Positions 36,849 through 61,913 of a DNA stretch of 64,000 nt are shown one piece after another. The stretch lies in contig NC_135250.1 of the NCBI RefSeq assembly GCF_964204865.1, positions 7,750,001 through 7,814,000 on the forward strand, read 5' to 3'. Source of the DNA: Styela clava (taxonomy: Eukaryota). The position numbers were made by a program, and so were the translations under genes. The stretch's first letter is position 1. Every line of letters begins with the position of its first letter. Under the pieces are notes generated by a model. It did not search any database. It was not told where the DNA came from and saw only the letters and a program-made list of their open reading frames with translations.

Positions 36849-38424
36849 TTAATGTTTGCGATGTAAACCCAAGCATCGCGCAAATGGGAATAACAAGCAT
36901 TTCAGAAACTTGCTTGCTTTCTTCCCCTTTGCTTTCTGTCGAGGATGAACACGTCGGTGGTTACGACTTGTGTTGATTGACTCGTTTTCCATTTTCATGG
37001 GTTTCAGTTTTGCCTCCATTGCTTCCTCTGTTCTTGCTCTCTCAAGGCTGTAAAGAATTATATATATGTGTCAGATGGAACTCTGAAACAGGACTTTACT
37101 TGAACGCAAATTGAATCACTGTGTGCGTATATATGACTAGCCACTTGGCCAAAAGAACTTACACGCTGCTCTAGTCAAATATTATGTCGTGACTCTAATA
37201 AGTGTTACCATTACTGGCGTTTAAATTTACCCGTTAGTAGAAGCAGACGGGACATACGATTTTCTTATTATACATAACTCTTGATTCTACGTTATGAGAT
37301 GCTAAAACCGTCGTTAATTAGAAATAAATAAACACAAGTTAGTAATCACCATTCATCAATGAGTTTGTCAACCATCACGTTGAGAATTTCCGCTACGTTG
37401 CTGCAATATTCATACGATAAAAATATTTCTTCCGGATAATTCGGGATGGGGAAGGCGACTGCTTGTGGTTTAGGATCATGAAACGATTCTTGATCAAACA
37501 ATCCAAGAATGTTGTCCTCCAGTTGCAGGCTTTCCAAAGATCCTTTTTAAACAAAATATGTTCAATATAGGGCACGAAACTTGAACTTCCCAACGGTTAT
37601 TTCCATTCACAAACATTAACATTTTCGTTAAAATGTAGTTCCAGACGAGCCCTCAGCACCTTGGCTACAAATATGTAGGGCCGACCGGTCGGCTTTAATC
37701 TATAAATACGAGTATAGGTCATCACACTTATTTGTTCCTATACTACGCCTCAATATTGTTTCACATTTCACTCTGCTTACTCAAACTTACTTAAATTTGG
37801 ATAGCTGCGTGTCTCCATTATCGGAACAATTACCTGATCTTGCGTCATCACGATAGGTTCGCTAGCCATTTTCTCCATAATTTTCTGGTATTCGACATGC
37901 TTCGTTTCGAACAAACCTGGGAATTTATAGCTAATTTTTTAACATCTATATTTTAAAATTCCATTACATATTTTAAAAAATATACTTACTCAAGATGCAA
38001 GGTGAACTTTGAGTGCTCAGCCAGCATTCCTGCTTCGGTTTTTGAATGATTGATGGATTGAGATAGTACTCGCTTCTCCACTTTTTGGTTGTCGTTAGTG
38101 GTGAGATCTATGTAAATTAAAATAAATTGTACCGTGGACATTTTAAATAGTAGTGATACAAATATCATGCCCAAAATGAAGCGAAAATTCAGAAAGATGA
38201 TATGTAGTAGTATATTCGGTAAACTAATAGCGAAGAGGTTTGTTAACGTTTACGCTATCTTAACTTCACCCTAAATAACTCTTTTCTACAAAAAAGTAGT
38301 CAGCTGATGTACAAGATTAATGATAGGTTTATAATCTTTTGTGAGAAAGTCTCCCATATTCTTTTGTAGAAAAAAAAATCGACACAGTTATCGCATTATT
38401 CATTCTCGACTGCATAATTTTCAT
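36849..38424 (-). pseudogene. Array orphan gene, copy 1: exon-1 splice donor deleted (probable pseudogene or altered 5' end)
   Basis: Exons 2-5 are intact (38107-37990, 37916-37791, 37542-37350, 37047-36849). A ~76-bp block containing ...GGGGATATGATG|GTAAGC, present in copies 2-5, is missing at ~38395. Confidence 0.65.
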
Positions 38425-41400
38425 CTAGTTGTTCACGCGGTGAAAACTGTGCAATTGATATTTTCTCAAAATATAAATCAATTTTAATAAAATTGTTACG
38501 TTTATGACGTCACAATAACCAAATACACTTCGCCGGACGTCCCATTGCTTGTGGCATTTTATACTACTATATTTGTTTGCCGTTTAAAGTGATTTCCAGA
38601 ATAAGTGTTAGATAAAATTAAAATAAAAAAGCAGCTTTCCACCTCATGAAACAGGATTGTTTTCGTGTACACCGTAATTGTGTGCGGGTCGCTGACGACG
38701 ATTTCGCCACTCGTTTGCCTTGCTCATAACTGTATTAGCACGGACCGCGGCAATGAAGTCCAAACAGACTTCATAATGGCGCCAAGCAAAGTGATTAGTT
38801 CTTTTCTAAGCGCCTCATAGTGTTGTGCTGGAAGCCTGCTTAGTAAATTGGTTTGCAGCTCAGGAATCGGTGGACACTTGGTTGTGTTATCATACGGACT
38901 TCAAACTGAGGTTACATGGTTTAAAAAGATCGGTAAGTTCTGAATTACGTCAGGTTTATTTGTGTTTGTTTTATGTTAATGCACTAATGTAGTATTGCGG
39001 TACAATACTTTCATATGGAAGGGCTATTCGTACACTAATGAATTGTTGTGACCTAAGTGACAGAATTTCCGTACTTCATTGGGACTGAGAATATTCTGCC
39101 AACCGTATTTTCATGTAAAACTGACCTTCGCACTATTAATGCTTTCAAATAACAAAGTGTCCACACGATCCTCATTTGCTGCAAAGCTAGACAATGTATT
39201 TTACGCTACAAGCATTTTTATTACTCAGTAAAATCACATATTTAAGCAAATTAAATGAGACGGTCAAAGAACAACACACCACAGTTGGCAGAAATATTCA
39301 TGTACAGGAACGGCACTTCGATATCGAATAAGAAACATAGGGTGTAACAAAATGAAAATGATTACGTAGTCTAATTATCGCGTTTTTAGACTTTAGTTTG
39401 GTTCTAATTTCAATGTCCGAGTCAAATTGGTATTATTTTGAGTTAAAACACGTCCAATAAATGAATATAATCTGAGATAAGCAATTGCATTTTTGAAGAT
39501 TCTTGTAAATAGCAAATACTTAATCAATAACCTTGAACGTTGTTTCGGATGTTTTTAATAAGATAGTTGTATATATAATGAAAGCGTGGATTAATGTTAA
39601 AATATTTTTGCTAAATTTTTTGTCGATATATATAAATATATATATATATGTAGAATTATATGAACTGGGATTTTGCCGTACACGTAAGATACGGTCAAAT
39701 TCCAAATGGAATGTGGAGATTCTAAATATTAAATAAATTTATCTCATAAGAGACAAACAGCATATTGTTCTGATAAGACGGTGGAAAACATGTATGTAAT
39801 CGTCACTTGACATTGGCTTGCCATCTATAAATACACATTGATTCCGTTAGACATAAATTCCGCAAAAATAATACACAAGAATTTACATATCGTCCTTATT
39901 ATATATCAGCACATTTTAATTTGCTATATTTAAGAACCTAATTGTTGAAGCATTAATAAAATTGATAGCGTCTCAGCTAATTCAACACCCCTTCATCACA
40001 AACCAATCTAGCGAAAGCTTCGTTTCTAGAAGTTATATATGCGAGTTATATATGTCAAAAAATTAGTTGATGGATAATTATATTCAAATAAAAAAAACTT
40101 GGTTAATATGTAAATGATATAAACTTTCCACCGCTAGTGCGCCCTGCTCAATGAAACGACAATACGCTTGTAAACATCGTCCAAAGAATTAACTCCTCAT
40201 GCCGCAAGGTGTCTCGCGTAATTGCCCACATAAAGAATGTGAACTTCCTGGAAAGGTTGTCGTTCGACTATTGTTATATTGGCTCGTCGAATTTTGCCTA
40301 TTACAAGAAAGATACAGCTAATCTGAATCTTACAGTGAAGAAAGTATTTAGCCTGGTTTAATCAAATTGTCTAATAAACCTGTAAAATTCTACGTCTTGT
40401 TATTTGGTTTCGGTATTTGAATCAATTTTTCTTCAAATCTTACTCTACTCAAAAAAAGGCATGAAGCAATTAGATATTAATCGCGGCTGTTGGAATAGTT
40501 TACATGAAACTATTTGCCATTGAGTAACGCTTTATTAGTTTTCGCAAGCGGGAAGCATGATCTTTTTGTCATTTTCAATGTTTCCAAAATAAACTATACC
40601 CAACCTGAGTGGATTGCATGAACCAACGTAACAGACTATGGTATATATATACTTTTATTTACATTACATATATATTCACTAAAATTCTTACACACAAACA
40701 AACACAAACACAATAAATGAACAAACTACCCTACCAATTTCTGATGTCTTAATATAAAACCTACAAATTCTTTGTTGCTGACTTAAAATACGTTGTTGAA
40801 TAAAACAAAATAATTAAATATTTAAATTCAAATTGTAGCAAACAACAACAAATTGTAAACTACATCCATAATGCAATCATAGTACGATATAATACATAAA
40901 GCAATTTCACATTTGCGAAATGGTTCAATAATAACACTGCAATAAATGCAAGCAAATGAAGACTTAGTAGTATCACAATCGTTCTTAGGAGCGATGGTGT
41001 TGTGGTTAAGGCGTTGCACTGACTACGTTGGTATCGCATGGACATTCGACAGACCACGTGAACGGGGGATCGCCAGGTAATCATACACCGTTCGGTGAGA
41101 CTAACTTGGACCAATTTAAGGGATGAAAAACCCGCGTGTTGGTGTAACTCTTCGAAATTAGCCAAATTTGGAATAGAACAATTAGCACTCTTTAGGACAG
41201 TCCAAAAATAATTTGAAACCAAATCAAAGTAAAAGACTTTCAGAGAACAAAACTATTCTACTTTGAACTAAAGGGATTGGTCTAACAATTGCAGAAAAGA
41301 AGCTGTTGTCAACAACATGAACAACAATACAGCAACACTACTGTCTGCGAGTTGTTTCTGTAAATAGTCAGATTTTCAGTATAAAAAAAGAAAAATCTCA

Positions 41401-42581
41401 AGGCTCAATTGGCCATACAGAAACATTTCACATCCAAGTAGGAACATTATCCAAACAAAGCATTTCCGTAACTAGTCAGGCTCGTCATAAGCCTCAAGGT
41501 GAAACCACCATGTCGTTGGAAACACTGTTGATTGAATGAATGTTATATGCTGGGTTTTGATATTTGAAAACATTTATTAATGATGTTCTGTTGTTGCCTT
41601 AATTTTTGGTACAAAATAAATGAAAGATTGATGAATATCGCCTAAAAATTTATGATAATTCATTCGGGAATTTTTGCGAAAATTGCTACAACACATTGTT
41701 TTTAACATACGCACCAATGTGAATCAATTGTTAAAATAAAGTACAATAATCGAATTTAGAAGATGACTGGACTTTTTATAAATAAATTAACCATTAATAA
41801 TTCTCAGATTGACGGTATTTCTTATGACCTAACCTTTGCTTTATCGGTGAGCTTGAACAACGGACTAGCCTTGGTTCGAGATCTTTAATACGAATGCGAT
41901 ACCAACATCTTATGCAAACGCACTAATCACTGAGTCATCGCGACCAAAGTTGCGACATTATTGACAGAGCATTCGGCTGCTTTCAAATTGGTAAACTTCG
42001 TAACATAGAACTATATATATATATGTGCCAAACAGGGTTAGGACTTTAAGGGTCTTTAGCTAGATGATAGATGCGTTTGCCACTACGTTAAAACAGAATT
42101 AGAATCATACCACTGTAAAGTTGAGAGGTACATGTTGAGAGGTACATCCCCCAACAATTACTACTTATATGCATCTAGAATGAATACCCACCTAACCAGA
42201 CCAGGTGTGGAGAATGGGCAAGCATTCGATTACCAGTGGGATAAATACAAAGTATAATCATAATACTACCTATATAAAATACTATCGACACAGAGTTGTA
42301 AGTCGAGCCGAGTTTATCTGTACAGGATTGGATGCGCGATTTAGTTTGAATGGAAAATGAACATAATTTTCAAATATCAAATTCAACTAATTAACATGTA
42401 TTGGAATCCCCTATAAAGATTTGTTTACATTATTAAATAATTTTACCAATCTCATTAAATTTACAATTACAACAATTTTAATTCTGGATGGCGCTTGCAA
42501 TTGTGAATTCTGGTCAAGTATATGGGTTAAAATCAGCTTGCTTACAACTCTGTGCCCCTAAATAGTCACTCACGCTCGCAC

Positions 42582-44252
42582 TCACTCAATTATAATTAAA
42601 TTTTTCTGATAATGTTTGCGATGTAAACCCAAGCATCGCGCAAATGGGAATAACAAGCATTTCAGAAACTTGCTTGCTTTCTTCCCCTTTGCTTTCTGTT
42701 GAGGATGAACACGTCGGTGGTTACGTTTTGTGTTGATTGGCTCGTTCTCCATTTTCATGGGTTTCAGTTTTGCCTCCATTGCTTCCTCTGTTCTTGCTCT
42801 CTCAAGGCTGTAAAGAATCATATATATGTGTCAGATGGAACTCTGAAACAGGACTTTACTTGATCGTAAATTGAACCACTTGTGCGTATATATGACTAGC
42901 CACTTGGCAGAAAGAACTTACACGCTGCTCTAGTCACTTATTATGTGGTGACTCTAATAAGTGTTACCAGTACTGGCGTTTAAATTTACCCGTTAGTAAA
43001 GGCAGACGGGACATACGACTTTATTATTATACATAACTCTTGATTCTACGTCGTTAAAAAACGTCGTTAATTAGAAATAAATAAACGCAAGTTAGTAATC
43101 ACCATTCGTCAATGAGTTCGTCAACCATCACGTTGAGAATTTCCGCTACGTTGCTGCAATATTCATACGACAAAAATATTTCTTCCGGATAATTCGGTAT
43201 GGGTAGGGCGACTGCTTGTGGTTTAGGATCATGAACCGATTCTTGATCAGACAATCGAAGAATGTCGTCCTCCAGTTGCAGGCTTTCCAAAGATCCTTTT
43301 TAAACAAAATATGTTCAATATAGGGCACGAAACTTGAACTTCCCAACGGTTATTTCCATTCACAAACATTAACATTTTCGTTAAAATGTAGTTCCAGACG
43401 AGCCCTCATCACCCTGGCTACAAATATGTAGGGCCGACCGGTCGGCTTTAATCTATAAATACGAGTATAGGTCATCACATTTTTTTGTTCCTATACTACG
43501 ACTCAATATTGTTTCACATTTCACTCTGCTTACTCAAACTTACTTAAATTCGGATAGCTGCGTGTTTCCATTATCGGAACAATTGCCTGATCTTGCGTCA
43601 TCACGATAGGTTCGCTAGCCATTTTCTCCATAATTTTCTGATATTCGACATGCTTCGTTTCGAACAAACCTGGGAATTTATAACTAATTTTTTAACATCT
43701 ATATTTTAAAATTCCATTACAAATTTTAAAAAAATATACTTACTCAAGATGCAAGGTGAACTTTGAGTGCTCAGCCAGCATTCCTGCTTCGGTTTTTGAA
43801 TGATTGATGGATTGAGATAGTACTCGCTTCTCCACTTTTTGGTTGTCGTTAGTGGGGAGATCTATGTAAATTAAAATAAATTGTACCATGGACATTTTAA
43901 ATAGTAGTGATACAAATATCATGCCCAAAATGAAGCGAAAATTCAGAAAGATGATATGTATTAGTATATTCGGTGCACTAATAGCGAAGAGGTTTGTTAA
44001 CGTTTACGCTATCTTAACTTCACCCTAAATACCTCTTTTCTGCAAAAAAGTAGTCTGCTGATGTACAAGATTAATGATAGGTTCATAATCTTTTGTGAGA
44101 AAGTCTCCCATATTCTTCTGTAGAAAAAAAAATCGACACAGTTATCGCATACCGCAGGCATGTGCATACTGGCATTTAAATTTCAATTAATTGCTTACCA
44201 TCATATCCCCAGAAGCTTTCACAATATTCATTCTCGACTGCATAATTGTCAT
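42582..44252 (-). CDS. Array orphan protein, copy 2 (stop-loss, 238 aa)
   Basis: Exons 44252-44199, 43861-43744, 43669-43544, 43295-43103 and 42807-42582; junction phases 0,1,1,2 are consistent. TAA>TAT adds YQKNLIIIE. Confidence 0.75.
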
Positions 44253-46064
44253 CTAGTTGTTCACGCGGTGAAAACTGTGCAATTGATATTTTCTCAAAAT
44301 ATAAATCAATTTTAATAAAATTGTTACGTTTATGACGTCACAATAACAAAATACACTTCGCCGGACGTGTCATTGCTTGTGGCATTTTATACTACTATAT
44401 TTGTTTGCCGTTTAAAGTGATTTCCAGAATAATTGTTAGATAAAATTAAAATAAAAAACGCAGCTTTCCATCTCATGAAACAGGATTGTTTTCGTGTACA
44501 CCGTATCTGTGTGCGGGTCGCTGACGACGATTTCGCCACTCGTTTGCCTTGCTCATAACTGTATTAGCACGGACCGCAGCAATGAAGTCCAAACAGACTT
44601 CATAATTGCGCCAAGCAAAGTGATTAGTTCTTTTCTAAGCGCCTCATAGTGTTGTGCTGGAAGCCTGCTTAGTAAATTGGTTTGCAGCTCAGGAACCGGT
44701 GGACACTTTGTTGTGTTATCATACGGACTTCAAACTGAGGTTACTTGGTTTAAAAAGATTGGTAAGTTCTGAATTACGTCAGGTTTATTTGTGTTTGTTT
44801 TATGTTAATGCACTAATGTAGTATTGCGGTACAATACTTTCATATGGAAGGGCTATTCGTACACTAATTAATTGTTGTGACCTAAGTGACAGAATTTCCG
44901 TACTTCATTGGGACTGAGAATATTCTGCCAACCGTATTTTCATGTAAAATTGACCTTCGCACTATTTATGCTTTCAAATAACAAAGCGTTCACACGATCC
45001 TCATTTGCTGCGAAGCTAGACAATGTATTTACGCTACAAGCATTTTTATTACTCAGTAAAATCACATATTTAAGCAAATTAAATGAGACGGTCAAAGAAC
45101 AGCACACCACAGTTGGCAGAAATATTCATGTACAGGAACGCACTTCGATATCGAAACACAGGGTGTAACAAAATGAAAATGATTAGGTGGTCTAATTATC
45201 GCGTTTTCAGACTTTAGTTTGGTTCTAATTTCAATGTCCGAATCAAATTGGAACTATTTTGAGTTAAAACACGTCCAACTGTTAACTTAAGTTGGTTAAA
45301 TTAACCCAATATGCTATGAGAGTACAATGATATCTCAGTTTACAAACATCCATGTGCATGGTATCCACAGCCATAAATATAATGACAAATACACATATCA
45401 CTGAACAAAATAAATTGAATTTAGTCCCAGCGCAAAATGAATATATTCTGAGATTGACTTTTTGAAGATTCTTGTAAATAACAAATATTAAATGAATAAC
45501 CTTGAACGTTGTTTCGGATGTTTTTAATAAGATAGTTGTATATATAATGAAAGCGTGGTTTATTGGTAAAATGTTTTTGCTAAATTTTTTTGTCGATATA
45601 TATATATATATGTAGAATTATATTAACTGGGATTTTGCCGTACACGTAAGAGACGGTCAAATTTCAAATGGAATGTGGAGATTCTAAATATTAAATAAAT
45701 TTATCTCATAAGAGACAAACAGCATATTGTTCTGATAAGACGGTGGAAAACATGTATGTAATCGTCACTTGACATTGGCTTGCCATCTATAAATACACAT
45801 TGATTCTGTTAGACATAAATTCCGCAAAAATAAGACACAAGAATTCACATATCGTCCTTATTATATATCAGCACATTTTAATTTGCTGTATTTTAGAACA
45901 TAATTGTTGAAGCATTAATAAAATTGATAGCGTCTCAGATAATCTAACACCCCTTTATCACAAAACAAGCTAGCGAAAGCTTCGTTTCTAGAAGTTATAT
46001 ATGCAAGATGTCAAAAAATTAGTTGATGGATAAATATATTTAAATAAAAAAACTTGGTTAATAT

Positions 46065-47945
46065 GTGAATGATATGAACTTTCCACCGTTAGTGCGCCCT
46101 GCTGAATGGAACGACAATACGCTTGTAAACATGGTCCAAAGAATCAACTCCTCATGCCGCAAGGTGTCTCGCGTAATTGCCCACATAAAGAATGTGAACT
46201 TCCTGGAAAGGTTGTCGTTCGACTATTGTTATATTGGCTCGTCGAATTTTGCCTATTACAAGAAAGATACAGCTAATCTGAATCTTAGAGTGAAGAAAGT
46301 ATTTAGCCTGGTTTAATCAAATTGTCTAATAAACCTGCAAAATTCTACGTCTTGTTATTTGGTTTCAGTATTTGAATCAATTTTTCTTCAAATCTCACTC
46401 TACTCAAAAAAAGGCATGAAGCAATTAGATATTAATCGCGGCTGTTGGAAGAGTTTACATGAAACTATTTGCCATTGAGTAACGCTTTATTAGTTTTCGC
46501 AAACGGGAAGCAAGTTATTTTTGTCATTTTCAATGTTTCCAAAATAAACTATACCCAACCTGAGTGGATTGCATGAACCAACGTAACAGACTATGGTATA
46601 TATATACTTTTATTTACATTACATATATATTCACTAAAATTCTTGCACACAAACAAACACAAACACAATAAATGAACAAACTACCCTACCAATTTCTGAT
46701 GTGTTAATATAAAACCTACAAATTGTTTGTTGCTGACTTAAAATACGTTGTTGAATAAAACAAAATGATTAAATATTTAAATTCAAATTGTAGCAAACAA
46801 CAACAAATTGTAAACTACATTCATAATGCATACATAGTACAATATAATACATAAAGCAATTTCACATTTGCGAAATGGTTCAATAATAACACTGCAATAA
46901 ATGCAAGCAAATGAAGACCTTGTAGTATTACAATCGTTCTTAGGAGCGATGGTGTTGTGGTTATGGCGTTGCACTGACTATGTTGGTATCGTATGGACAT
47001 TCGACAGGCCACGTGAACGGGGGATCGCCAGGTAATCATACACCGTTCGGTGAGAATAACTTGCACCAATTTGAGGGATGAAAAACCCGCGTGTTGTGTA
47101 ACTCTTCGAAATTAGCCAAATTTGGAATAGAACAATTGGCACTAATTAGGACAGTCCAAAAATAATTTGAAACCAAATCAAAGTAAAAGACTTTCAGAAA
47201 ACAAAACTATTCTACTTTGAACTAAAGGGATTGGACTAACAATTGCAGAAAAGAAGCTGTTGTCAACAACATGAACAACATTACAGCAACACTACTGTCT
47301 GCGAGTTGTTTCTGTAAATAGTCAGATTTTCAGTATAAAAAATAAAAAAATCTCAAGGCTCAATTGGCCATACAGAAACATTTCACATCCAAGTAGGAAC
47401 ATTATCCAAACAGAGCATTTCCTTAACTAGTCAGGCTCGTCACAAGCCTCAAGGTGAAACCACCATGTCGTTGGAAACACTGTTGATTGAATGAATGTTA
47501 TATGCTGGGTTTTGATATTTGAAAACAATTATTAATGATGTTCTGTTGTTGCCTTAATTTTTGGTACAAAATAAATGAAAGATTGATGAATATCGCCTAA
47601 AAATTTATGATAATTCATTCGGGAATTTTTGCGAAAATTGCTACAACACATTGTTTTTAACATACGCACCAATGTGAATCAATTGTTAAAATAAAGTACA
47701 ATAATTGAATTTAGAAGATGACTGGACTTTTTATAAATAAATTAACCATTAATAATTCTCAGATTGACGGTATTTCTTATGACCTAACCTTTGCTTTATC
47801 GGTGAGCTTGAACAACGGACTAGCCTTGGTTCGAGATCTTTAATACGAATGCGACACCAACATCTTATGCAAACGCACTAATCACTGAGTCATCGCGACC
47901 AAAGTTGCGACATCATTGACAGAGCATTCGGCTGCTTTCAAATTG
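46065..47945 (+). pseudogene. Decayed plus-strand exon-like segments in the array unit (shown for unit 3; present in every complete unit)
   Basis: ORF 46065-46316 shows several synonymous differences between copies (ATT/ATC, AAG/AAA, TTG/CTG, TTC/TTT) but TGG>TGA in most copies. AG...GT-bounded blocks at 46944-47031 and 47763-47945 (IDGISYDLTFALSV..., two internal stops). Confidence 0.3.
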
Positions 47946-48562
47946 GTAAACTCCGTAACATAGAACTATATATATATATGTGACAAACAGGGTTAAGAAT
48001 TTAAGGGTCTTTAGCTAAATGATAGATGCGTTTGCCACTACGTTTAAACAGAATTAGAATCATACCACTGTAAGTTGAGAGGTACATGTTGAGAGGTACA
48101 TCCCCCAACAATTACTACTTATATGCATCTGGAATGAATACCCACCTAACCAGACCAGGTGTGGAGAATGGGCAAGCATTCGATTACCAGTGGGATAAAT
48201 ACAAAGTATAATCCTAATACTACCTATATAAAATACTATCGACACAGAGTTGTAAGTCGAGCCGAGTTTATCTGTACAGGATTGGGTGCGCGAATTAGTT
48301 TGAATGGAAAATGAACATATTTTTCAATTATCAAATTCAACTAATTAACATGTATTGGAATTCCCTATAAAGATTTGTTTACATTATTAAATAATTTTAC
48401 CAATCTCATTAAATTTACAATTACAACAATTTTAATTCTGGATGGCGCTTGGAATTGTGAATTCTGGTCAAGTATATGGGTTAAAATCAGCTTGCTTACA
48501 ACTCTGTGCCCCTAAATAGTCACTCACGCTCGCACTCACTCAATTATAATTAAATTTTTCTG

Positions 48563-50205
48563 TTAATGTTTGCGATGTAAACCCAAACATCGCGCAAATG
48601 GGAATAACAAGCATTTCAGAAACTTGCTTGCTTTCTTCCCCTTTGCTATCTGTTGAGGATGAACACGTCGGTGGTTACGTCTTGTGTTGATTGGCTCGTT
48701 CTCCATTTTCATGGGTTTCAGTTTTGCCTCCATTGTTTCCTCTGTTCTTGCTCTCTCAAGGCTGTAAAGAATCATGTATATGTGTCAGTTGGAACTCTGA
48801 AACAGGACTTCACTTGATCGTAAATTGAACCACTTGTGCGTATATATGACTAGCCACTTGGCCAAAAGAACTTACACGCTGCTCTAGTCAATTATTATGT
48901 CGTGACTCTATTAAGTGTTACCAGTACTGGCGTTTAAATTTACCCGTTAGTAAAAGCAGACGGGACATACGACTTTCTTATTATACATAACTCTTGATTC
49001 TACGTCGTTAAAAAACGTCGTTAATTAGAAATAAATAAACACAAGTTAGTAATCACCATTCGTCAATGAGTTCGTCAACCATCACGTTGAGAATTTCCGC
49101 TACGTTGCTGCAATATTGATACGATAAAAGTATTTCTTCCGGATAATTCGGTATGGGTAGGGCGACTGCTTGTGGTTTAGGATCATGAACCGATTCTTGA
49201 TCAGACAATCCAAGAATGTCGTCCTCCAGTTGCAGGCTTTCCAAAGATCCTTTTTAACCAAAATATGTTCAATATAGGGCACGAAACTTGAACTTCCCAA
49301 CGGTTATTTCCATTCACAAACATTAACATTTTCGTTAAAATGTAGTTCCAGACGAGCCCTCAGCACCCTGGCTACAAATATGTAGGGCCGACCGGTCGGC
49401 TTTAATCTATAAATACGAGTATAGGTCATCACATTTTTTTGTTCCTAAACTACGACTCAATATTGTCTCACATTTCACTCTGCTTACTCAAACTTACTTA
49501 AATTCGGATAGCTGCGTGTTTCCATTATCGGAACAATTGCCTGATCTTGCGTCATCACGATAGGTTCGCTAACCATTTTCTCCATAATTTTCTGATATTC
49601 GACATGCTTCGTTTCGAACAAACCTGGGAATTTATAACTAATTTTTTAACATCTATATTTTAAAATTCCATTACATATTTTAAAAATATATACTTACTCA
49701 AGATGCAAGGTGAACTTTGAGTGCTCAGCCAGCATTCCTGCTTCGGTTTTTGAATGATTGATGGATTGAGATAGTACTCGCTTCTCCACTTTTTGGTTGT
49801 CGTTAGTGGTGAGATCTATGTAAATTAAAAAAAATTGTACCATGGACATTTTAAATAGTAGTGATACAAATATCATGCCCAAAATGAAGCGAAAATTCAG
49901 AAAGATGATATGTATTAGTAGATTCGGTGCACTAATAGAGAAGAGGTTTGTTAACGTTTACGCTATCTTAACTTCACCCTAAATAACTCTTCTCTACAAA
50001 AAAGTAGTCAGCTGATGTACAAGATTAATGATAGGTTCATGATCTTTTGTGAGAAAGTCTCCCATATTCTTTTGTAGAAAAAAAATCAACACAGTTATCG
50101 CATACCGCAGGCATGTGCATACTGGCATTTAAATTTCAATTAATTGCTTACCATCATATCCCCAGAAGCTTTCATAATATTCATTCTCGACTGCATAATT
50201 GTCAT
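48563..50205 (-). CDS. Array orphan protein, copy 3 (229 aa)
   Basis: Exons 50205-50152, 49815-49698, 49623-49498, 49249-49057 and 48761-48563; open frame with GT-AG junctions. Confidence 0.78.
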
Positions 50206-53200
50206 CTAGTTGTTCACGCGGTGAAAACTGTGCAATTGATATTTTCTCAAAATATAAATCAATTTTAATAAAATTGTTACGTTTATGGCGTCACAATAAC
50301 AAAATACACTTCGCCGGACGTGCCATTGCTTGTGGCAATTTATACTACTATATTTGTTTGCCGTTTAAAGTGATTTCCAGAATAAGTGTTAGATAAAATT
50401 AAAATAAAAAAAGCAGCTTTGCATCTCGTGAAACAGGATTGTTTTCGTGTACACCGTATCTGTGTGCGGGTCGCTGACGACGATTTCGCCACTCGTTTGC
50501 CTTGCTCATAACTGTATTAGCACGGTCCGCAGCAATGAAGTCCAAACAGACTTCATAATGGCGCCAAGCAAAGTGATTAGTTCTTTTCTAAGCGCCTCAT
50601 AGTGTTGTGCTGGAAGCCTGCTCAGTAAATTGGTTTGCAGCTCAGGAATCGGTGGACACTTGGTTGTGTTATCATACGGACTTCAAACTGAGGTTACATG
50701 GTTTAAAAAGATCGGTAAGTTCTGAATTACGTCAGGTTTATTTGTGTTTGTTTTATGTTAATGCACTAATGTAGTATTGCGGTACAATACTTTCATATGG
50801 AAGGGCTATTCGTACACTAATGAATTGTTGTGACCTAAGTGACAGAATTTCCGTCCTTCATTGGGACTGAGAATATTCTGCCAACCGTATTTTCATGTAA
50901 AATTGACCTTCGCACTATTTATGCTTCCAAATAACAAAGCGTTCACACGATCCTCATTTGCTGCAAAGCTAGACAATGTATTTTACGCTACAAGCATTTT
51001 TATTACTCAGTAAAATCACATATTTAAGCAAATTAAATGAGACGGTCAAAGAACAACACACCACCGTTGGCAGAAATATTCATGTACAGGAACGGCACTT
51101 CGATATCGAATAAGAAACACAGGGTGTAACAAAATGAAAATGATTAGGTGGTCTAATTATCGCGTTTTTAGACTTTAGTTTGGTTCTAATTTCAATATCC
51201 GAATCAAATTGGAATTATTTTGAGTTAAAACACGTCCAACTGTTAACTTAAGTCGGTTAAATTAACCCAATATGCTATGAGAGTACAATGATATCTCAGT
51301 TTACAAACATCCATGTGCATGGTATCCACAGCCATAAATATAATGACAAATACACATATCACTGAACAAAATAAATTGAGTTTAGTCCCAGCGCAAAATG
51401 AATATAATCTGAGATAAGCAATTGACTTTTTGAAGATTCTTGTTAATAACAAATATTAAATCAATAACCTTGAACTTTGTTTCGGATGTTTTTAATAAGA
51501 TAGTTGTATATATGATGAAAGCGTGGTTTAATGTTAAAATGTTTTTGCTAATTTTTTTTGTCGGTATATATATATATATATATATATGTAGAAATATATG
51601 AACTGGGATTTTGCCGTACACGTAAGAGACGGCCAAATTTCAAATGGAATGTGGAGATTCTAAATATTAATAGACATAAATTCCGCAAAAATAATACACA
51701 AGAATTTACATATCGTCCTTATTATATATCAGCACATTTTAATTTGCCATATTTAAGAACCTAATTGTTGAAGCATTAATAAAATTGATAGCGTCTCAGC
51801 TAATGTAACACCCCTTTATCACAAACCAATTTAGCGAAAGCTTCGTTTCTAGAAGTTATATATGCGAGTTATATATGTCAAAAAATTAGTTGATGGATAA
51901 ATATATTCAAATAAAAAAAACTTGGTTAATATGTAAATGATATAAACTTTCCACCGCTAGTGCGCCCTGCTCAATGAAACGACAATACGCTTGTAAACAT
52001 GGTCCAAAGAATCAACTCCTCATGCCGCAAGGTGTCTCGCGTAATTGCCCACATAAAAAATGTGAACTTCCTGGAAAGGCTGTCGTTCGACTATTGTTAT
52101 ATTGGCTCGTCGAATTTTGCCTATTACAAGAAAGATACAGCTAATCTGAATCTTACAGTGAAGAAAGTATTTAGCCTGGTTTAATCAAATTGTCTAATAA
52201 ACCTGTAAAATTCTACGTCATGTTATTTGGTTTCAGTATTTGAATAATTTTTCTTCAAATCTTACTCTACTCAAAAAAAGGCATGAAGCAATTAGATATT
52301 AATCGCGGCTGTTGGAATAGTTTACATGAAACTATTTGCCATTGAGTAACGCTTTATTAGTTTTCGCAAGCTGGAAGCATGATCTTTTTGTCATTTTCAA
52401 TGTTTTCAAAATAAACTATACCCAACCTGAGTGGATTGCATGAACCAACGTAACAGACTATGGTATATATATACTTTTATTTACATTACATATATATTCA
52501 CTAAAATTCTTACACACAAACAAACACAAACACAATAAATGAACAAACTACCCCACCAATTTCTAATGTGTTAATATAAAACCTACAAATTGTTTGTTGC
52601 TGACTTAAAATACGTTGTTGAATAAAACAAAATAATTAAATATTTAAATTCAAATTGTAGCAAACAACAACAAATTGTAAACTACATCCATAATGCAATC
52701 ATAGTACGATATAATACATAAAGCAATTTCACATTTGCGAAATGGTTCAATAATAACACTGCAATAAATGCAAGCAAATGAAGACATAGTAGTATTACAA
52801 TCGTTCTTAGGAGCGATGGTGTTGTGGTTATGGCGTTGCACTGACCACGTTGGTATCGTATGGACATTCGACAGGGCACGTTAACGGGGGATCGCCAGGT
52901 AATCATACAACGTTCGGTGAGAATAACTTGCACCAATTTGAGGGATGAAAAACCCGCGTGTTGGTGTAACTCTTCGAAATTAGCCAAATTTGGAATAGAA
53001 CAATTGGCACTAGTTAGGACATTCCAAAAATAATTTGAAACCAAATCAAAGTAAAAGACTTTCAGAAAACAAAACTATTCTACTTTGAACTAAAGGGATT
53101 GGTCTAACAATTGCAGAAAAGAAGCTGTTGTCAACAACATGAACAACATTACAGCAACACTACTGTCTGCGAGTTGTTTCTGTAAATAGTCAGATTTTCA

Positions 53201-54430
53201 GTATAAAAAATAAAAAAATCTCAAGGCTCAATTGGCCATACAGAAACATTTCACATCCAAGTAGGAACATTATCCAAACAGAGCATTTCCTTAACTAGTC
53301 AGGCTCGTCACAAGCCTCAAGGTGAAACCACCATGTCGTTGGAAACACTGTTGATTGAATGAATGTTATATGCTGGGTTTTGATATTTGAAAACAATTAT
53401 TAATGATGTTCTGTTGTTGCCTTAATTTTTGGTACAAAATAAATGAAAGATTGATGAATATCGCCTAAAAATTTATGATAATTCATTCGGGAATTTTTGC
53501 GAAAATTGCTACAACACATTGTTTTTAACATACGCACCAATGTGAATCAATTGTTAAAATAAAGTACAATAATCGAATTTAGAAGATGACTGGACTTTTT
53601 ATAAATAAATTAACCATTAATATTTCTCAGATTGACGGTATTTCTTATGACCTAACCTTTGCTTTATCGGTGAGCTTGAACAACGGACTAGCCTTGGTTC
53701 GAGATCTTTAATACGAATGCGATACCAACATCTTATGCAAACGCACTAATCACTGAGTCATCGCGACCAAAGTTGCGACATTATTGACAGAGTATTCGGC
53801 TGCTTTCAAATTGGTAAACTTCGTAACATAGAACTATATATATATATGTGCCAAACAGGGTTAAGACTTTAAGGGTCTTTAGCTAGATGATAGATGCGTT
53901 TGCCACTACGTTAAAACAGAATTAGAATCATACCACTGTAAGTTGAGAGGTACATGTTGAGAGGTACATCCCCCAACAATTACTACTTATATGCATCTAG
54001 AATGAATACCCACCTAACCAGACCAGGTGTGGAGAATGGGCAAGCATTCGATTACCAGTGGGATAAATACAAAGTATAATCCTAATACTACCTATATAAA
54101 ATACTATCGACACAGAGTTGTAAGTTGAGCCGAGTTTATCTGTACAGGATTGGGTGCGCGATTTAGTTTGAATGGAAAATGAACATATTTTTCAATAATC
54201 AAATTCAACTAATTAACATGTATTGGAATTCCCTATAAAGATTTGTTTACATTATTAAATAATTTTACCAATCTCATTAAATTTACAATTACAACAATTT
54301 TAATTCTGGATGGCGCTTGGAATTGTGAATTCTGGTCAAGTATGTGGGTTAAAATCAGCTTGCTTACAACTCTGTGCCCCTAAATAGTCACTCACGCTCG
54401 CACTCACTCAATTATAATTAAATTTTTCTG

Positions 54431-56074
54431 TTAATGTTTGCGATGTAAACCCAAGCATCGCGCAAATGGGAATAACAAGCATTTCAGAAACTTGCTTGCT
54501 TTCTTCCCCTTTGCTTTCTGTTGAGGATGAACACGTCGGTGGTTACGTCTTGTGTTGATTGGCTCGTTCTCCATTTTCATGGGTTTCAGTTTTGCCTCCA
54601 TTGCTTCCTCTGTTCTTGCTCTCTCAAGGCTGTAAAGAATCATGTATATGTGTCAGTTGGAACTCTGAAACAGGACTTTACTTGATCGTAAATTGAACCA
54701 CTTGTGCGTATATATGACTAGCCACTTGGCCAAAAGAACTTACACGCTTCTCTAGTCAATTATTATGTCGTGACTCTATTAAGTGTTACCAGTACTGGCG
54801 TTTAAATTTACCCGTTAGTAAAAGCAGACGGGACATACGACTTTCTTATTATACATAACTCTTGATTCTACGTCGTTAAAAAACGTCGTTAATTAGAAAT
54901 AAATAAATACAAGTTAGTAATCACCATTCGTCAATGAGTTCGTCAACCATCACGTTGAGAATTTCCGCTACGTTGCTGCAATATTCATACGATAAAAATA
55001 TTTCTTCCGGATAATTCGGTATGGGTAGGGCGACTGCTTGTGGTTTAGGATCATGAACCGATTCTTGATCAGACAATCCAAGAATGTCGTCCTCCAGTTG
55101 CAGGCTTTCCAAAGATCCTTTTTAAACAAAATATGTTCAATATAGGGCACGAAACTTGAACTTCCCAACGGTTATTTCCATTCACAAACATTAACATTTT
55201 CGTTAAAATGTAGTTCCAGACGAGCCCTCAGCACCCTGGCTACAAATATGTAGGGCCGACCGGTCGGCTTTAATCTATAAATACGAGTATAGGTCATCAC
55301 ATTTTTTTGTTCCTATACTACGACTCAATATTGTTTCACATTTCACTCTGCTTACTCAAACTTACTTAAATTCGGATAGCTGCATGTTTCCATTATCGGA
55401 ACAATTGCCTGATCTTGCGTCATCACGATAGGTTCGCTAATCATTTTCTCCATAATTTTCTGATATTCGACATGCTTCGTTTCGAACAAACCTGGGAATT
55501 TATAACTAATTTTTTAACATCTATATTTTAAAATTCCATTACATATTTTAAAAATATATACTTACTCAAGATGCAAGGTGAACTTTGAGTGCTCAGCCAG
55601 CATTCCTGCTTCGGTTTTTGAATGATTGATGGATTGAGATAGTACTCGCTTCTCCACTTTTTGGTTGTCGTTAGTGGTGAGATCTATGTAAATTAAAAAA
55701 AATTGTACCATGGACATTTTAAATAGTAGTGATACAAATATCATGCCCAAAATGAAGCGAAAATTCAGAAAGATGATATGTATTAGTAGATTCGGTGCAC
55801 TAATAGAGAAGAGGTTTGTTAACGTTTACGCTATCTTAACTTCACCCTAAATAACTCTTTTCTACAAAAAAGTAGTCAGCTGATGTACAAGATTAATGAT
55901 AGGTTCATAATCTTTTGTGAGAAAGTCTCCCATATTCTTTTGTAGAAAAAAAAATCGACACAGTTATCGCATACCGCAGGCATGTGCATACTGGCATTTA
56001 AATTTCAATTAATTGCTTACCATCATATCCCCAGAAGCTTTCATAATATTCATTCTCGACTGCATAATTGTCAT
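54431..56074 (-). CDS. Array orphan protein, copy 4 (229 aa)
   Basis: Exons 56074-56021, 55683-55566, 55491-55366, 55117-54925 and 54629-54431; open frame. Confidence 0.78.
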
Positions 56075-59000
56075 CTAGTTGTTCACGCGGTGAAAACTGT
56101 GCAATTGATATTTTCTCAAAATATAAATCAATTTTAATAAAATTGTTACGTTTATGACGTCACAATAACAAAATTCACTTCGCCGGACGTGCCATTGCTT
56201 GTGGCATTTTATACTACTATATTTGTTTGCCGTTTAAAGTGATTTCCAGAATAAGTGTTAGATAAAATTAAAATAAAAAAAGCAGCTTTCCATTTCATGA
56301 AACAGGATTGTTTTCGTGTACACCGTATCTGTGCGCGGGTCGCTGACGACGATTTCGCCACTCGTTTGCCTTGCTCATAACTGTATTAGCACGGTCCGCA
56401 GCAATGAAGTCCAAACAGACTTCATAATGGCGCCAAGCAAAATGATTAGTTCTTTTCTAAGCGCCTCATAGTGTTGTGCTGGAAGCCTGCTTAGTAAATT
56501 GGTTTGCAGCTCAGGAATCGGTGGACACTTGGTTGTGTTATCATACGGACTTCAAACTGAGGTTACATGGTTTAAAAAGATCGGTAAGTTCTGAATTACG
56601 TCAGGTTTATTTGTGTTTGTTTTATGTTAATGCACTAATGTAGTATTGCGGTACAATACTTTCATATGGAAGGGCTATTCGTACACTAATGAATTGTTGT
56701 GACCTAAGTGACAGAATTTCCGTCCTTCATTGGGACTGAGAATATTCTGCCAACCGTATTTTCATGTAAAATTGACCTTCGCACTATTTATGCTTCCAAA
56801 TAACAAAGCGTTCACACGATCCTCATTTGCTGCAAAGCTAGACAATGTATTTTACGCTACAAGCAATTTTATTACTCAGTAAAATCACATATTTAAGCAA
56901 ATTAAATGAGACGGTCAAAGAACAACCTACCACAGTTGGCAGAAATATTCATGTACAGGAACGGCACTTCGATATCGAATAAGAAACACAGGGTGTAACA
57001 AAATGAAAATGATTAGGTGGTCTAATTATCGCGTTTTTAGACTTTAGTTTGGTTCTAATTTCAATGTCCGAATCAAATTGGAATTATTTTGAGTTAAAAC
57101 ACGTCCAACTGTTAACTTAAGTTGGTTAAATTAACCCAATATGCTATGAGAGTACAATGATATCTCAGTTTACAAACATCCATGTGCATGGTATCCACAG
57201 CCATAAATATAATGACAAATACACATATCACTGAACAAAATAAATTGAGTTTAGTCCCAGCGCAAAATGAATATAATCTGAGATAAGCAATTGACTTTTT
57301 GAAGATTCTTGTAAATAACAAATATTAAATCAATAACCTTGAACTTTGTTTCGGATGTTTTTAATAAGATAGTTGTATATATGATGAAATCGTGGTTTAA
57401 TGTTAAAATGTTTTTGCTAATTTTTTTTGTCGATATATATACATATATGTAGAAATATATGAACTGGGATTTTGCCGTACACGTAAGAGACGGTCAAATT
57501 TCAAATGGAATGTGGAGATTCTAAATATTAATAGACATAAATTCCGCAAAAATAATACACAAGAATTTACATATCGTCCTTATTATATATCAGCACATTT
57601 TAATTTGCTATATTTAAGAACCTAATTGTTGAAGCATTAATAAAATTGATAGCGTCTCAGCTAATTTAACACCCCTTTATCACAAACCATTTTAGCGAAA
57701 GCTTCGTTTCTAGAAGTTATATATGCGAGTTATATATGTCAAAAAATTAGGATAAATGGATAAATATATTCGAATAAAAAAAAAACTTGGTTAATATGTA
57801 AATGATATAAACTTTCCACCGCTAGTGCGCCCTGCTCAATGAAACGACAATACGCTTGTAAACATGGTCCAAAGAATCAACTCCTCATGCCGCAAGGTGT
57901 CTCGCGTAATTGTCCACATAAAGAATGTGAACTTCCTGTAAAGGCGGTCGTTCGACTATTGTTATATTGGCTCGTCGAATTTTGCCTATTACAAGAAAGA
58001 TACAGCTAATCTGAATCTTACAGTGAAGAAAGTATTTAGCCTGGTTTAATCAAATTGTCTAATAAACCTGTAAAATTCTACGTCTTGTTATTTGGTTTCA
58101 GTATTTGAATAATTTTTCTTCAAATCTTACTCTACTCAAAAAAAGGCATGAAGCAATTAGATATTAATCGCGGCTGTTGGAATAGTTTACATGAAACTAT
58201 TTGCCATTGAGTAACGCTTTATTAGTTTTCGCAAGCGGCAAGCATGATCTTTTTGTCATTTTCAATGTTTCCAAAATAAACTATACCCAACCTGAGTGGA
58301 TTGCAGGAACCAACGTAACAGACTATGGTATATATATACTTTTATTTACATTACATATATATTCACTAAAATTCTTACACACAAACAAACACAAACACAA
58401 TAAATGAACAAACTACCCTACCAATTTCTGATGTGTTAATATAAAACCTACAAATTGTTTGTTGCTGACTTAAAATACGTTGTTGAATAAAACAAAATAA
58501 TTAAATATTTAAATTCAAATTGTAGCAAACAACAACAAATTGTAAACTACATCCATAATGCAATCATAGTACGATATAATACATAAAGCAATTTCACATT
58601 TGCGAAATGGTTCAATAATAACACTGCAATAAATGCAAGCAAATGAAGACTTAGTAGTATTACAATCGTTCTTAGGAGCGATGGTGTTGTGGTTAAGGCG
58701 TTGCACTGACTACGTTGGTATCGTATGGACATTCGACAGACCACGTGAACGGGGGATCGCCAGGTAATCATACACCGTTCGGTGAGAATAACTTGGACCA
58801 ATTTAAGGGATGAAAAACCCGCGTGTTGGTGTAACTCTTCGAAATTAGCCAAATTTGGAATAGAACAATTGGCACTAAATAGGACAGTCCAAAAATAATT
58901 TGAAACCAAATCAAAGTAAAAGACTTCCAGAAAACAAAACTATTCTACTTTGAACTAAAAGGAATGGACTAACAATTGCAGAAAAGAAGCTGTTGTCAAC

Positions 59001-60269
59001 AACATGAACAACATTACAGCAACACTACTGTCTGCGAGTTGTTTCTGTAAATAGTCAGATTTCCAGTATAAAAAATAAAAAAATCTCAAGGCTCAATTGG
59101 CCATACAGAAATATTTCACATCCAAGTAGGAACATTATCCAAACAAAGCATTTCCTTAACTAGTCAGGCTCGTCACAAGCCTCAAGGTGAAACCACCATG
59201 TCGTTGGAAACACTGTTGATTGAATGAATGTTATATGCTGGGTTTTGATATTTGAAAACAATTATTAATGATGTTCTGTTGTTGCCTTAATTTTTGGTAC
59301 AAAATAAATGAAAGATTGATGAATATCGCCTAAAAATTTATGATAATTCATTCGGGAATTTTTGCGAAAATTGCTACAACACATTGTTTTTAACATACGC
59401 ACCAATGTGAATCAATTATTAGAATAAAGTACAATAATCGAATTTAGAAGATGACCTGACTTTTTATAAATAAATTAACCATTAATAATTCTCAGATTGA
59501 CGGTATTTCTTATGACTTAACCTTTGCTTTATCGGTGAGCTTGAACAACGGACTAGCCTTGGTTCGAGATCTTTATTACGAATGCGATACCAACATCTTA
59601 TGCAAACGCACTAATCACTGAGTCATCGCGACCAAAGTTGCGACATTATTGACAGAGCATTCGGCTGCTTTCAAATTGGTAAACTTCGTAACATAGAACT
59701 ATATATATATATATGTGCCAAACAGGGTTAAGACTTTAAGGGTCTTTAGCTAGATGATAGATGCGTTTGCCACTACGTTAAAACAGAATTAGAATCATAC
59801 CACTGTAAGTTGAGAGGTACATGTTGAGAGGTACATCCCCCAACAATTACTACTTATATGCATCTAGAATGAATACCCACCTAACCAGACCAGGTGTGGA
59901 GAATGGGCAAGCATTCGATCACCAGTGGGATAAATACAAAGTATAATCCTAATACTACCTATATAAAATACTATCGACACAGAGTTGTAAGTTGAGCCGA
60001 GTTTATCTGTACAGGATTGGGTGCGCGATTTAGTTTGAATGGAAAATGAACATATTTTTCAATTATCAAATTCAACTAATTAACATGTATTGGAATCCCC
60101 TATAAAGATTTGTTTACATTATTAAATAATTTTACCAATCTCATTAAATTTACAATTACAACAATTTTAATTCTGGATGGCGCTTGGAATTAATCAGCTT
60201 GCTTACAACTCTGTGCCCCTAAATAGTCACTCACGCTCGCACTCACTCAATTATAATTAAATTTTTCTG

Positions 60270-61913
60270 TTAATGTTTGCGATGTAAACCCAAGCATCGC
60301 GCAAATGGGAATAACAAGCATTTCAGAAACTTGCTTGCTTTCTTCCCCTTTGCTTTCTGTTGAGGATGAACACGTCGGTGGTTACGTCTTGTGTTGATTG
60401 GCTCGTTCTCCATTTTCATGGGTTTCAGTTTTGCCTCCATTGCTTCCTCTATTCTTGCTTTCTCAAGGCTGTAAAGAATCATGTATATGTGTCAGATGTA
60501 ACTCTGAAACAGGACTTTACATGAACGTAAATTGAACCACTTGTGCGTATATATGACTAGCCACTTGGCCAAAAGAACTTACACGCTGCTTTAGTCAATT
60601 ATTATGTCGTGACTCTATTAAGTGTTACCAGTACTGGCGTTTAAATTTACCCGTTAGTAAAAGCAGACGGGACATACGACTTTCTTATTTTACATAACTC
60701 TTGATTCTGCGTCGTTAAAAAACGTCGTTAATTAGAAATAAATAAACACAAGTTAGTAATCACCATTCGTCAATGAGTTCGTCAACCATCACGTTGAGAA
60801 TTTCAGCTACGTTGCTGCAATATTCATACGATAAAAATATTTCTTCCGGATAATTCGGTATGGGTAGGGCGACTGCTTGTGGTTTAGGATCATGAACCGA
60901 TTCTTGATCAGACAATCCAAGAAAGTTGTCCTCCAGTTGCAGGCTTTCCAAAGATCCTTTTTAAACAAAATATGTTCAATATAGGGCACGAAACTTGAAC
61001 TTCCCAACGGTTATTTCCATTCACAAACATTAACATTTTCGTTAAAATGTAGTTCCAGACGAGCCCTCAGCACCCTGGCTACAAATATGTAGGGCCGACC
61101 GGTCGGCTTTAATCTATAAATACGAGTATAGGTCATCACATTTTTTTGTTCCTATACTACGACTCAATATTGTTTCACATTTCACTCTGCTTACTCAAAC
61201 TTACTTAAATTCGGATAGCTGCGTGTTTCCATTATCGGAACAATTGCCTGATCTTGCGTCATCACGATAGGTTCGTTAACCATTTTCTCCGTAATTTTCT
61301 GATATTCGACATGCTTCGTTTCGAACAAACCTGGGAATTTATAACTAATTTTTTAACATCTATATTTTAAAATTCCATTACATATTTTAAAAATATATAC
61401 TTACTCAAGATGCAAGGTGAACTTTGAGTGCTCAGCCAGCATTCCTGCTTCGGTTTTTGAATGATTGATGGATTGAGATAGTACTCGCTTCTCCACTTTT
61501 TGGTTGTCGTTAGTGGTGAGATCTATGTAAATTAAAAAAAATTGTACCATGGACATTTTAAATAGTAGTGATACAAATATCATGCCCAAAATGAAGCGAA
61601 AATTCAGAAAGATGATATGTATTAGTAGATTCGGTGCACTAATAGAGAAGAGGTTTGTTAACGTTTACGCTATCTTAACTTCACCCTAAATAACTCTTTT
61701 CTACAAAAAAGTAGTCAGCTGATGTACAAGATTAATGATAGGTTCATAATCTTTTGTGAGAAAGTCTCCCATATTTTTTTGTAGAAAAAAAAATCGACAC
61801 AGTTATCGCATACCGCAGGCATGTGCATACTGGCATTTAAATTTCAATTAATTGCTTACCATCATATCCCCAGAAGCTTTCATAATATTCATTCTCGACT
61901 GCATAATTGTCAT
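60270..61913 (-). CDS. Array orphan protein, copy 5 (229 aa)
   Basis: Exons 61913-61860, 61522-61405, 61330-61205, 60956-60764 and 60468-60270; open frame. Confidence 0.78.

What the first reader, a model, noticed from the sequence alone, without database searches (positions are those of the whole stretch)
36849..61913. Recently amplified 5-exon orphan gene hidden in the 5.85-kb tandem array
Seen: exons of 54+118+126+193+199 nt join in phase into a 229-aa protein, MTIMQSRMNI(V/M)KASGDMM|ISPLTTTKKWRSEYYLNPSIIQKPKQECWLSTQSSPCIL|SLFETKHVEYQKIMEKM.SEPIVMTQDQ.IVPIMETRSYPNL|RSLESLQLEDD...IDE|CLERARTEE...LGLHRKH. The ORF track shows exon 2 in the wrong frame. Several inter-copy changes are synonymous only in this frame (TCA/TCC, TAC/TAT, GAG/GAA, CCA/CCG). 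I recognise no known domain. Inference: a young, dosage-amplified lineage-specific gene family; such ampliconic orphans are often germline, drive or immunity related.
Basis: partly seen in the sequence, partly recalled or inferred. Interest (0 to 1): 0.8.

Follow-up and report, generated by a model that had tools for sequence, protein, structure and literature searches.

The report
Sea-squirt orphan gene, nine tandem copies
A sea squirt carries nine head-to-tail copies of a real, spliced gene for a protein with no detected relatives in other species; the protein is predicted to be floppy and likely clips onto the inside of the cell membrane, and the extra copies likely drift with little selection rather than being kept for higher dose.

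Summary
The gene is real. Five minus-strand exons (54+118+126+193+199 nt) give 229 aa; all four introns are spliced out in contigs of three public runs, and RefSeq already lists the products as uncharacterized Styela clava proteins. The array has nine units, four beyond the window; DNA depth is about 11 times the flank. The array is young, the family is not: two intact five-exon paralogues on C8 are 39% identical with dN/dS about 0.4, and eight broken copies are scattered over five contigs. No relative was found outside this species. The synonymous-change argument fails: 13 of 43 changes are synonymous, no more than in other frames; among units 2-9 dN/dS is about 1.1; three units have splice-site lesions. 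Best reading: a likely disordered, membrane-anchored adaptor gene with a conserved CRE-like promoter site, amplified from one tandem duplication by unequal crossing-over under relaxed selection. Germline, drive or immune roles are untested.

The parts
34065..64000 (.). Tandem array of about 5.85-kb units; units 1-5 and the start of unit 6 lie in the window; nine units in all, ending at G000:C1:7837667
36849..38424 (-). Copy u1, the most divergent (about 4.3% from the rest); a 74-bp deletion at 38396/38397 removes the end of exon 1 and its donor; exons 2-5 open
42582..44252 (-). Copy u2, stop codon lost, 238 aa; equals RefSeq P0004 over the first 229 residues
48563..50205 (-). Copy u3, intact 229 aa (RefSeq P0009; exon-3-skipped 187-aa model P0001)
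50152..50205 (-). u3 exon 1 coding part, 54 nt (an RNA-type contig reaches up to 50286)
49698..49815 (-). u3 exon 2, 118 nt; holds the best conserved motif of the family (KP..E.WL.TQSSPCILSL)
49498..49623 (-). u3 exon 3, 126 nt, frame-neutral cassette; KM.SE and T.S.PN motifs
49057..49249 (-). u3 exon 4, 193 nt; acidic; ends in a predicted amphipathic helix that is longer in this sub-family than in the C8 paralogues
48563..48761 (-). u3 exon 5 coding part, 199 nt; basic stretch and C-terminal amphipathic helix with two cysteines invariant in the three intact lineages
46450..48562 (-). About 2-kb 3' untranslated region of u3-type transcripts, covered by several RNA-type contigs; AATAAA at 46614 and 46491
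54431..56074 (-). Copy u4, intact 229 aa (RefSeq P0006)
60270..61913 (-). Copy u5, intact 229 aa (RefSeq P0005)
56155..56162 (.). Palindrome TGACGTCA (CRE-like; name recalled) 81-88 nt before the ATG; also at 38505, 44333, 61994; one-base variant at 50286; kept in 7 of 9 units and in both intact C8 paralogues
51075..51658 (-). Duplicated last codons and 3' untranslated region of the neighbouring sulfotransferase gene, carried in every unit; the unit junction lies at its right end
29032..32833 (-). Left neighbour outside the array: spliced glycosyltransferase family 7 (beta-1,4-galactosyltransferase-like) gene

Best explanation
This is a spliced, lineage-restricted Styela clava gene in nine tandem copies whose product is predicted to be a mostly disordered protein that likely binds the inner face of a membrane by its basic, two-cysteine C-terminal helix and likely acts as an adaptor through short conserved motifs, while the copies likely arose from one duplication and now likely drift under relaxed selection. 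Shown: gene structure, splicing, copy number, one shared junction, purifying selection on old paralogues, near-neutral change among young copies. Inferred: unequal crossing-over as the amplifier; membrane anchoring with palmitoylation of the two cysteines; phosphorylation and 14-3-3-type binding at the serine motifs; transcription through a CREB/ATF-type factor at the conserved promoter palindrome.
For: Splicing. Nine units, all eight internal junctions with the same breakpoint inside the last exon of the sulfotransferase neighbour, six of them sharing one further deletion; edge units u1, u2, u9 most divergent, u6-u8 0.5-0.8% apart; 871 of 2278 pairs of informative sites fail the four-gamete test, so units recombine. 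Relaxed selection: u1-private changes 8 synonymous and 8 non-synonymous against 5 and 22 in u2-u9 (Fisher p=0.043); changes hit residues invariant in the deep paralogues 8 times against 8.0 expected; u1 lost a donor, u7 an acceptor, u8 gained a competing donor-like GTGAGT 4 nt upstream and is annotated as a 159-aa model; 2 of 9 units changed the promoter palindrome; eight broken dispersed copies. Old function: C8 paralogues with the same five exons and phases, dN/dS 0.40 (95% bootstrap 0.25-0.61) and 0.41 (0.23-0.61). Protein: AlphaFold2 mean pLDDT 46 and 41, the C-terminal helix is the best-scored part of the C8 protein (block mean 70); that helix has the highest hydrophobic moment in all three lineages (0.56-0.59) and the last 41-54 residues carry net charge +10 to +14.
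Against: No experiment and no known relative supports the membrane or adaptor role; low pLDDT from a 7-10 row alignment can reflect a shallow alignment, not disorder. The 14-3-3-like pattern (recalled) occurs three and two times in the C8 proteins but once in the array protein, and I ran no chance control for it. Some constraint on the array remains: 30 non-synonymous changes against about 50 expected from the non-coding spectrum (p=0.002), 0 stops against 3.8 expected (p=0.02), 0 indels wholly inside coding exons against 4.8 expected (p=0.008; p=0.14 if the two exon-edge deletions count), so 'drift' is partial. Counts are small and recombination makes them non-independent. Coding exons are not less variable than introns plus 3' UTR (p=0.22).
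Confidence: 0.5

Rival explanations
1. The array was selected for dose in the germline (sperm competition or meiotic drive), as ampliconic testis genes are.
For: Recent amplification to nine or more copies; repeated births and deaths elsewhere in the genome; a CRE-like palindrome kept across lineages with dS above 1, and in mammals CREM drives spermatid genes through CRE sites (PMC8753101, start of abstract in a search listing only). RNA-type contigs and two older-assembly proteins lean to u1/u2-type alleles, which hints at different copy sets in other animals.
Against: No tissue data. No excess of amino-acid change (dN/dS about 1.1 in u2-u9, 0.57-0.73 in all nine); three of nine units have splice lesions and two a changed promoter site. 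CRE sites serve many somatic genes (recalled). Tandem arrays are common in this genome (PMC7540406 passages; unchecked scan notes).
Confidence: 0.12
2. The gene is a cAMP- or stress-inducible somatic response gene (haemocyte or epithelial signalling), expanded like other stress families of this invasive species.
For: Conserved CRE-like site; 2-kb 3' UTR with 13 ATTTA pentamers (no chance control); tandem Hsp70 expansion described in this species (PMC7540406 passages).
Against: No immune domain, signal peptide or diversifying selection seen; no induction data.
Confidence: 0.15
3. The array sub-family is a small membrane-bound A-kinase anchoring protein: its exon-4 helix binds the dimerisation/docking domain of PKA regulatory subunits or of sperm RIIa-domain proteins.
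For: Residues about 143-177 are predicted helical and amphipathic (moment 0.52); weak Pfam match to Radial_spoke_3 (E=0.093, 12.6 bits, cut-off 26.4); AKAPs use such helices (PMC10990152 passage).
Against: A loosened, recalled AKAP pattern is met by 21% of shuffled copies of the protein; both C8 paralogues lack the extended helix, and the one scanned (P0014) lacks the pattern; the Pfam match is far below cut-off and absent for the full-length protein.
Confidence: 0.08
4. The unit is transposon cargo or an assembly artefact.
For: Eight degraded copies dispersed over five contigs.
Against: DNA depth 11.1 and 11.6 times the flank in two runs of one sample; units differ by 0.5-4.5%; no transposon protein match; dispersed copies keep introns and show no common end points in the BLAST ranges; the unit ends cut through an ordinary neighbouring gene.
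Confidence: 0.03

Closest known systems
RefSeq Styela clava uncharacterized LOC144428322, LOC144421085, LOC120339203, LOC120339219, LOC144425240, LOC144425255, LOC144428286 (array) and LOC120328705 (C8 paralogue)
   Same: These records are the very proteins: same lengths and sequences as units u2-u6, u8, u9 and the C8 gene.
   Different: They carry no function; five identifiers searched in full text gave 0 papers. The second intact C8 paralogue (L022, 217 aa) was returned by none of the protein searches.
Birth-and-death tandem gene arrays and taxonomically restricted gene families (e.g. the tandem Hsp70 cluster of S. clava, PMC7540406)
   Same: Tandem amplification, recombination among units, pseudogenes, lineage restriction.
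   Different: The amplified gene has no known domain; the whole array traces to one junction in a neighbour's last exon.
Ampliconic germline gene families of mammals and flies (recalled)
   Same: Many near-identical, recombining copies of a fast-evolving gene without a known fold.
   Different: No germline expression, sex linkage or positive selection shown.
Vexin (PF15505), C5orf47/DUF4680 (PF15730), Bearded/ESM4 (PF15952)
   Same: Nearest by language-model features to the C8 paralogue (0.80, 0.81, 0.75): small, low-complexity animal proteins.
   Different: All scores are under 0.9 and reached by a third of shuffled proteins; no Pfam match at E up to 10; no match of PF15505 or PF15730 in the own genome, a blank that the tool marks as weak.

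Membership tests
Protein-coding spliced gene | Predicted introns removed in transcripts | tested here: met
   4 of 4 joints in X1, X2, X3; 3 of 4 in X5
Protein-coding spliced gene | Purifying selection on the reading frame | tested here: met
   dN/dS 0.40 and 0.41 between intact deep paralogues, intervals below 1; third pair saturated
Taxonomically restricted (orphan) gene family | No homologue outside the lineage | tested here: inconclusive
   Only S. clava proteins; none in 89, 91, 92; but no other ascidian genome could be searched directly, and one search missed a true 38% relative
Birth-and-death multigene family | Young duplicates, old intact paralogues and pseudogenes side by side | tested here: met
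   Nine array units, two intact C8 genes, eight broken dispersed loci
Dosage-selected ampliconic gene | Copies kept intact and constrained, or positively selected | tested here: inconclusive
   Three of nine with splice lesions, dN/dS about 1.1 in u2-u9, yet no stops or internal indels
Dosage-selected ampliconic gene | Germline-biased expression | not testable with these tools
   Runs carry no tissue label and are contigs only
A-kinase anchoring protein | Amphipathic helix of 14-18 residues | tested here: inconclusive
   Helix predicted at low confidence; pattern met by 21% of shuffles
A-kinase anchoring protein | Direct binding to a PKA R-subunit docking domain | not testable with these tools
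   Needs an overlay or pull-down; see Tried and rejected
Vexin / DUF4680 / Bearded | Match to the family profile | tested here: not met
   No Pfam match at E up to 10 for P0002, P0001, P0013
Transposon-encoded protein | Match to a transposase, helicase or retroelement domain; element termini | tested here: not met
   No domain match; unit ends cut a host gene; termini of dispersed copies judged only from BLAST ranges

The most novel reading that the evidence does not exclude
A sea-squirt-specific, CRE-driven germline scaffold protein gained an acidic docking helix in one sub-family, which then amplified in some populations only, as a sperm-competition or drive locus with copy number differing between animals.
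Probability: 0.1. Interest if true: 0.7.

Novelty: new member of a known kind. Interest (0 to 1): 0.3.

Why it matters
As it stands it is an ordinary case of a lineage-restricted family in birth-and-death turnover, already annotated as uncharacterized proteins. It is a tidy example, with one traceable junction, a visible loss of constraint after amplification and old constrained paralogues, and it is a candidate copy-number marker in an invasive species. It would matter more if expression proved gonad-specific and copy number affected transmission or fertility, since I know of no such ampliconic system in tunicates (recalled; searched only through).

Tried and rejected
No RNA holder was on record as RNA in the run search; the spliced joints come from runs guessed to be RNA. 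Pfam, NCBIfam, PDB sequences (19, 54; best E 0.65 and 0.057), the ESM Atlas, phages, metagenome and viral contigs: nothing usable. Complex prediction of residues 138-180 with two copies of an RIIa-domain protein of the same genome (a stand-in, because the PKA docking domains appear split by introns): score 0.08, no answer, neither for nor against binding. Fold searches were not run, as both models have pTM under 0.2. Frame comparison of synonymous changes did not single out the coding frame. Vexin and DUF4680 profiles found nothing in the genome, a weak blank. Identifiers: 0 papers; 0 hits in the one supplementary file of PMC11988888, which may use other gene names; supplements of other S. clava papers were not searched and may hold expression data under other identifiers. 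Contig depth was not used to rank expression. A profile search of the own genome was not available, so the paralogue count rests on two single proteins and one DNA query and is a lower bound. Ancestral state of the u1/u2-type RNA alleles: the C18 outgroup covered only 5 of 13 sites (3 of 4 u1/u2-type alleles matched it), too few to decide.
Full report
Observation. Self-comparison shows a head-to-tail array from 34065 to the end of the window with units of 5.65-5.96 kb. A search of the own genome and the adjoining stretches show nine units, ending at window-equivalent 87667 (G000:C1:7837667). On the minus strand each unit holds five coding exons of 54, 118, 126, 193 and 199 nt with GT..AG ends that translate to 229 aa. 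Laid on unit 3, contigs of runs X1, X2 and X3 skip all four introns exactly and X5 three of four; X4 and X6 show intron 4, and X6 intron 3, on unit 1, while the DNA-like runs X10 and X11 do not among the joint rows printed. The tool only guesses that these runs are RNA. An exon-4 search returned RefSeq proteins named uncharacterized, Styela clava; the cluster holds models identical to units 2, 3, 4, 5, 6 and 9, a 159-aa model that fits unit 8 (it also equals unit 6 over that stretch, but unit 6 has its own full model), two 187-aa isoforms without exon 3, and three proteins of an older annotation. Median contig depth over the array is 11.1 and 11.6 times that of the single-copy flank in two runs of one sample; the tool warns that this is no copy number, but it excludes a single copy and fits nine or a few more.

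How the array arose. All eight internal junctions share one breakpoint: the right end lies a few codons before the stop of a sulfotransferase gene (PF00685, E=8e-12), the left end between the orphan's 3' end and a family-7 glycosyltransferase gene. Each unit therefore carries the sulfotransferase tail and 3' untranslated region upstream of the orphan promoter. Six junctions share one more deletion of about 120 bp. Unit 1 differs from the rest by 4.2-4.5%, unit 2 by 2.0-2.6%, units 6-8 from each other by 0.5-0.8%; 871 of 2278 pairs of informative sites are incompatible with one tree. One non-homologous duplication followed by unequal crossing-over and conversion explains this (inference).

Selection among copies. 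Changes private to unit 1 are 8 synonymous and 8 non-synonymous; the rest are 5 and 22 (dN/dS about 1.1; Fisher p=0.043). Variable residues fall on positions invariant in the deep paralogues 8 times against 8.0 expected. Unit 1 lost the exon-1 donor (74-bp deletion), unit 7 the exon-4 acceptor (32-bp deletion), unit 8 gained a donor-like GTGAGT 4 nt before the exon-2 donor, unit 2 lost its stop, and units 3 and 9 changed the promoter palindrome. Against pure drift: non-synonymous changes number 30 against about 50 expected (p=0.002), stops 0 against 3.8, and indels wholly inside exons 0 against 4.8. The expected values rest on all non-coding columns, of which the intergenic part is the most variable; exons are not less variable than introns plus 3' UTR (p=0.22). 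Constraint looks relaxed, not absent.

The family is older than the array. Searches with the protein, with a relative and with DNA found ten more loci. Two on C8 are intact with the same five exons and intron phases: LOC120328705 (216 aa, found at E=1.6e-23) and a 217-aa gene in L022 that no protein search returned. They are 59% identical to each other and 39% to the array protein, with dN/dS 0.40 (0.25-0.61) and 0.41 (0.23-0.61); the third pair is saturated. The other eight (C18:16.25 Mb, C1:14.17, C2:14.12, C2:27.31, C6:2.08, C8:21.547, C17:19.00, C17:18.89) keep intron remnants but have stops, deletions, insertions or missing exons. A weak hit at C6:6.85 Mb (E=0.97) lies beside a tandem repeat and was dropped. 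No protein outside S. clava was found: 2 hits among 76 and 145 candidates, 3 among 1549 with a profile, 2 in an unindexed search of 1.84 billion representatives. Other ascidian genomes could not be searched, so restriction to one species is not shown.

What the protein likely does. AlphaFold2 gives no folded domain (mean pLDDT 46 and 41, pTM under 0.2); in the C8 protein the C-terminal helix scores best. Three lineages share 63 invariant residues, bunched in short motifs: W.SE, KP..E.WL.TQSSPCILSL, KM.SE, T.S.PN, E.EP...R.N.RR and KCL..P..RC.G. The last motif is the most amphipathic 14-residue window in all three proteins and ends a tail of net charge +10 to +14, after an acidic middle. A basic stretch plus an amphipathic helix with cysteines is a common way to hold a soluble protein at the inner membrane leaflet, often with palmitoylation (own knowledge). 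The serine motifs fit a 14-3-3-type pattern (recalled) three, two and one times; I ran no chance control. I therefore read it as a membrane-tethered disordered adaptor, at about even odds. The palindrome TGACGTCA lies 47-96 nt before the start in all three lineages, where synonymous sites are 40% identical or less between the array and C8; its background rate is 14 in 213 kb of loci held. This points to a CREB/ATF-type input (name recalled), which fits a germline or a somatic inducible gene equally.

Copy sets may differ between animals. Of 36 RNA-versus-unit-3 differences taken from the 40 rows printed (of 110; four rows in the sulfotransferase tail left out), 23 restore the majority allele, 12 match alleles seen only in units 1 or 2 (some shared with 5 or 9), and 1 matches units 4-9 only. 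Two older-annotation proteins also carry A75 and F115, the unit-1 states. This hints that the central expansion is absent or less expressed in those animals; contigs drop variants, so it is a hint only.

Comparison and verdict. The proteins are already in RefSeq without function, and five identifiers gave no paper. Tandem expansions are described in this species (PMC7540406, passages read). AKAP background came from passages of PMC10990152 and PMC7140648; CREM background from a search listing only. Language-model neighbours (Vexin, C5orf47, Bearded) scored under 0.9 and failed profile tests. The finding is a correct gene call and a new member of a known kind: an uncharacterized, lineage-restricted family in birth-and-death turnover. 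The dosage, germline, drive and immune readings remain open but have no positive support beyond the amplification and the promoter site. Interest 0.3.

Noticed in passing
L022:4576-6136 (-), G000:C8:15366576-15368136: An intact five-exon, 217-aa paralogue with the conserved promoter palindrome that none of the protein searches returned; it may be unannotated.
   Followed up: partly
G000:C1 about 7824410-7825330 (unit 7, L012): An insertion of about 920 bp flanked by TTAA on both sides, with ends that recall a non-autonomous piggyBac-type element (label recalled).
   Followed up: no
L013 about 5640-5800 (-), right of the array: Last exon of a cytosolic sulfotransferase gene; RNA-type contigs of X1, X3 and X5 run from it into the last unit, so its 3' untranslated region is part of the repeat.
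   Followed up: partly
window 29032-32833 (-): Spliced glycosyltransferase family 7 gene, six joints in run X4.
   Followed up: partly
window about 50225-50240 (-) and the same place in both C8 paralogues: A conserved acceptor-like stretch ending in ACAG about 25 nt before the start codon; it may be a trans-splice or upstream-exon acceptor, though one RNA-type contig reads through it.
   Followed up: no
L032:1501-1653 (-) and L033 about 1498-1650 (-): Two single-exon RIIa docking domains, resembling sperm-protein-17-type genes (label recalled); the two other RIIa matches (L034, L035) appear split by introns.
   Followed up: partly
L028:5548-9000: A tandem repeat of about 178 bp covering more than 3.4 kb on C6.
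   Followed up: no
window 25368-26245 (-): Exon-like open frames of a further gene, with only weak Pfam matches (E 0.009-0.025, below cut-off).
   Followed up: partly
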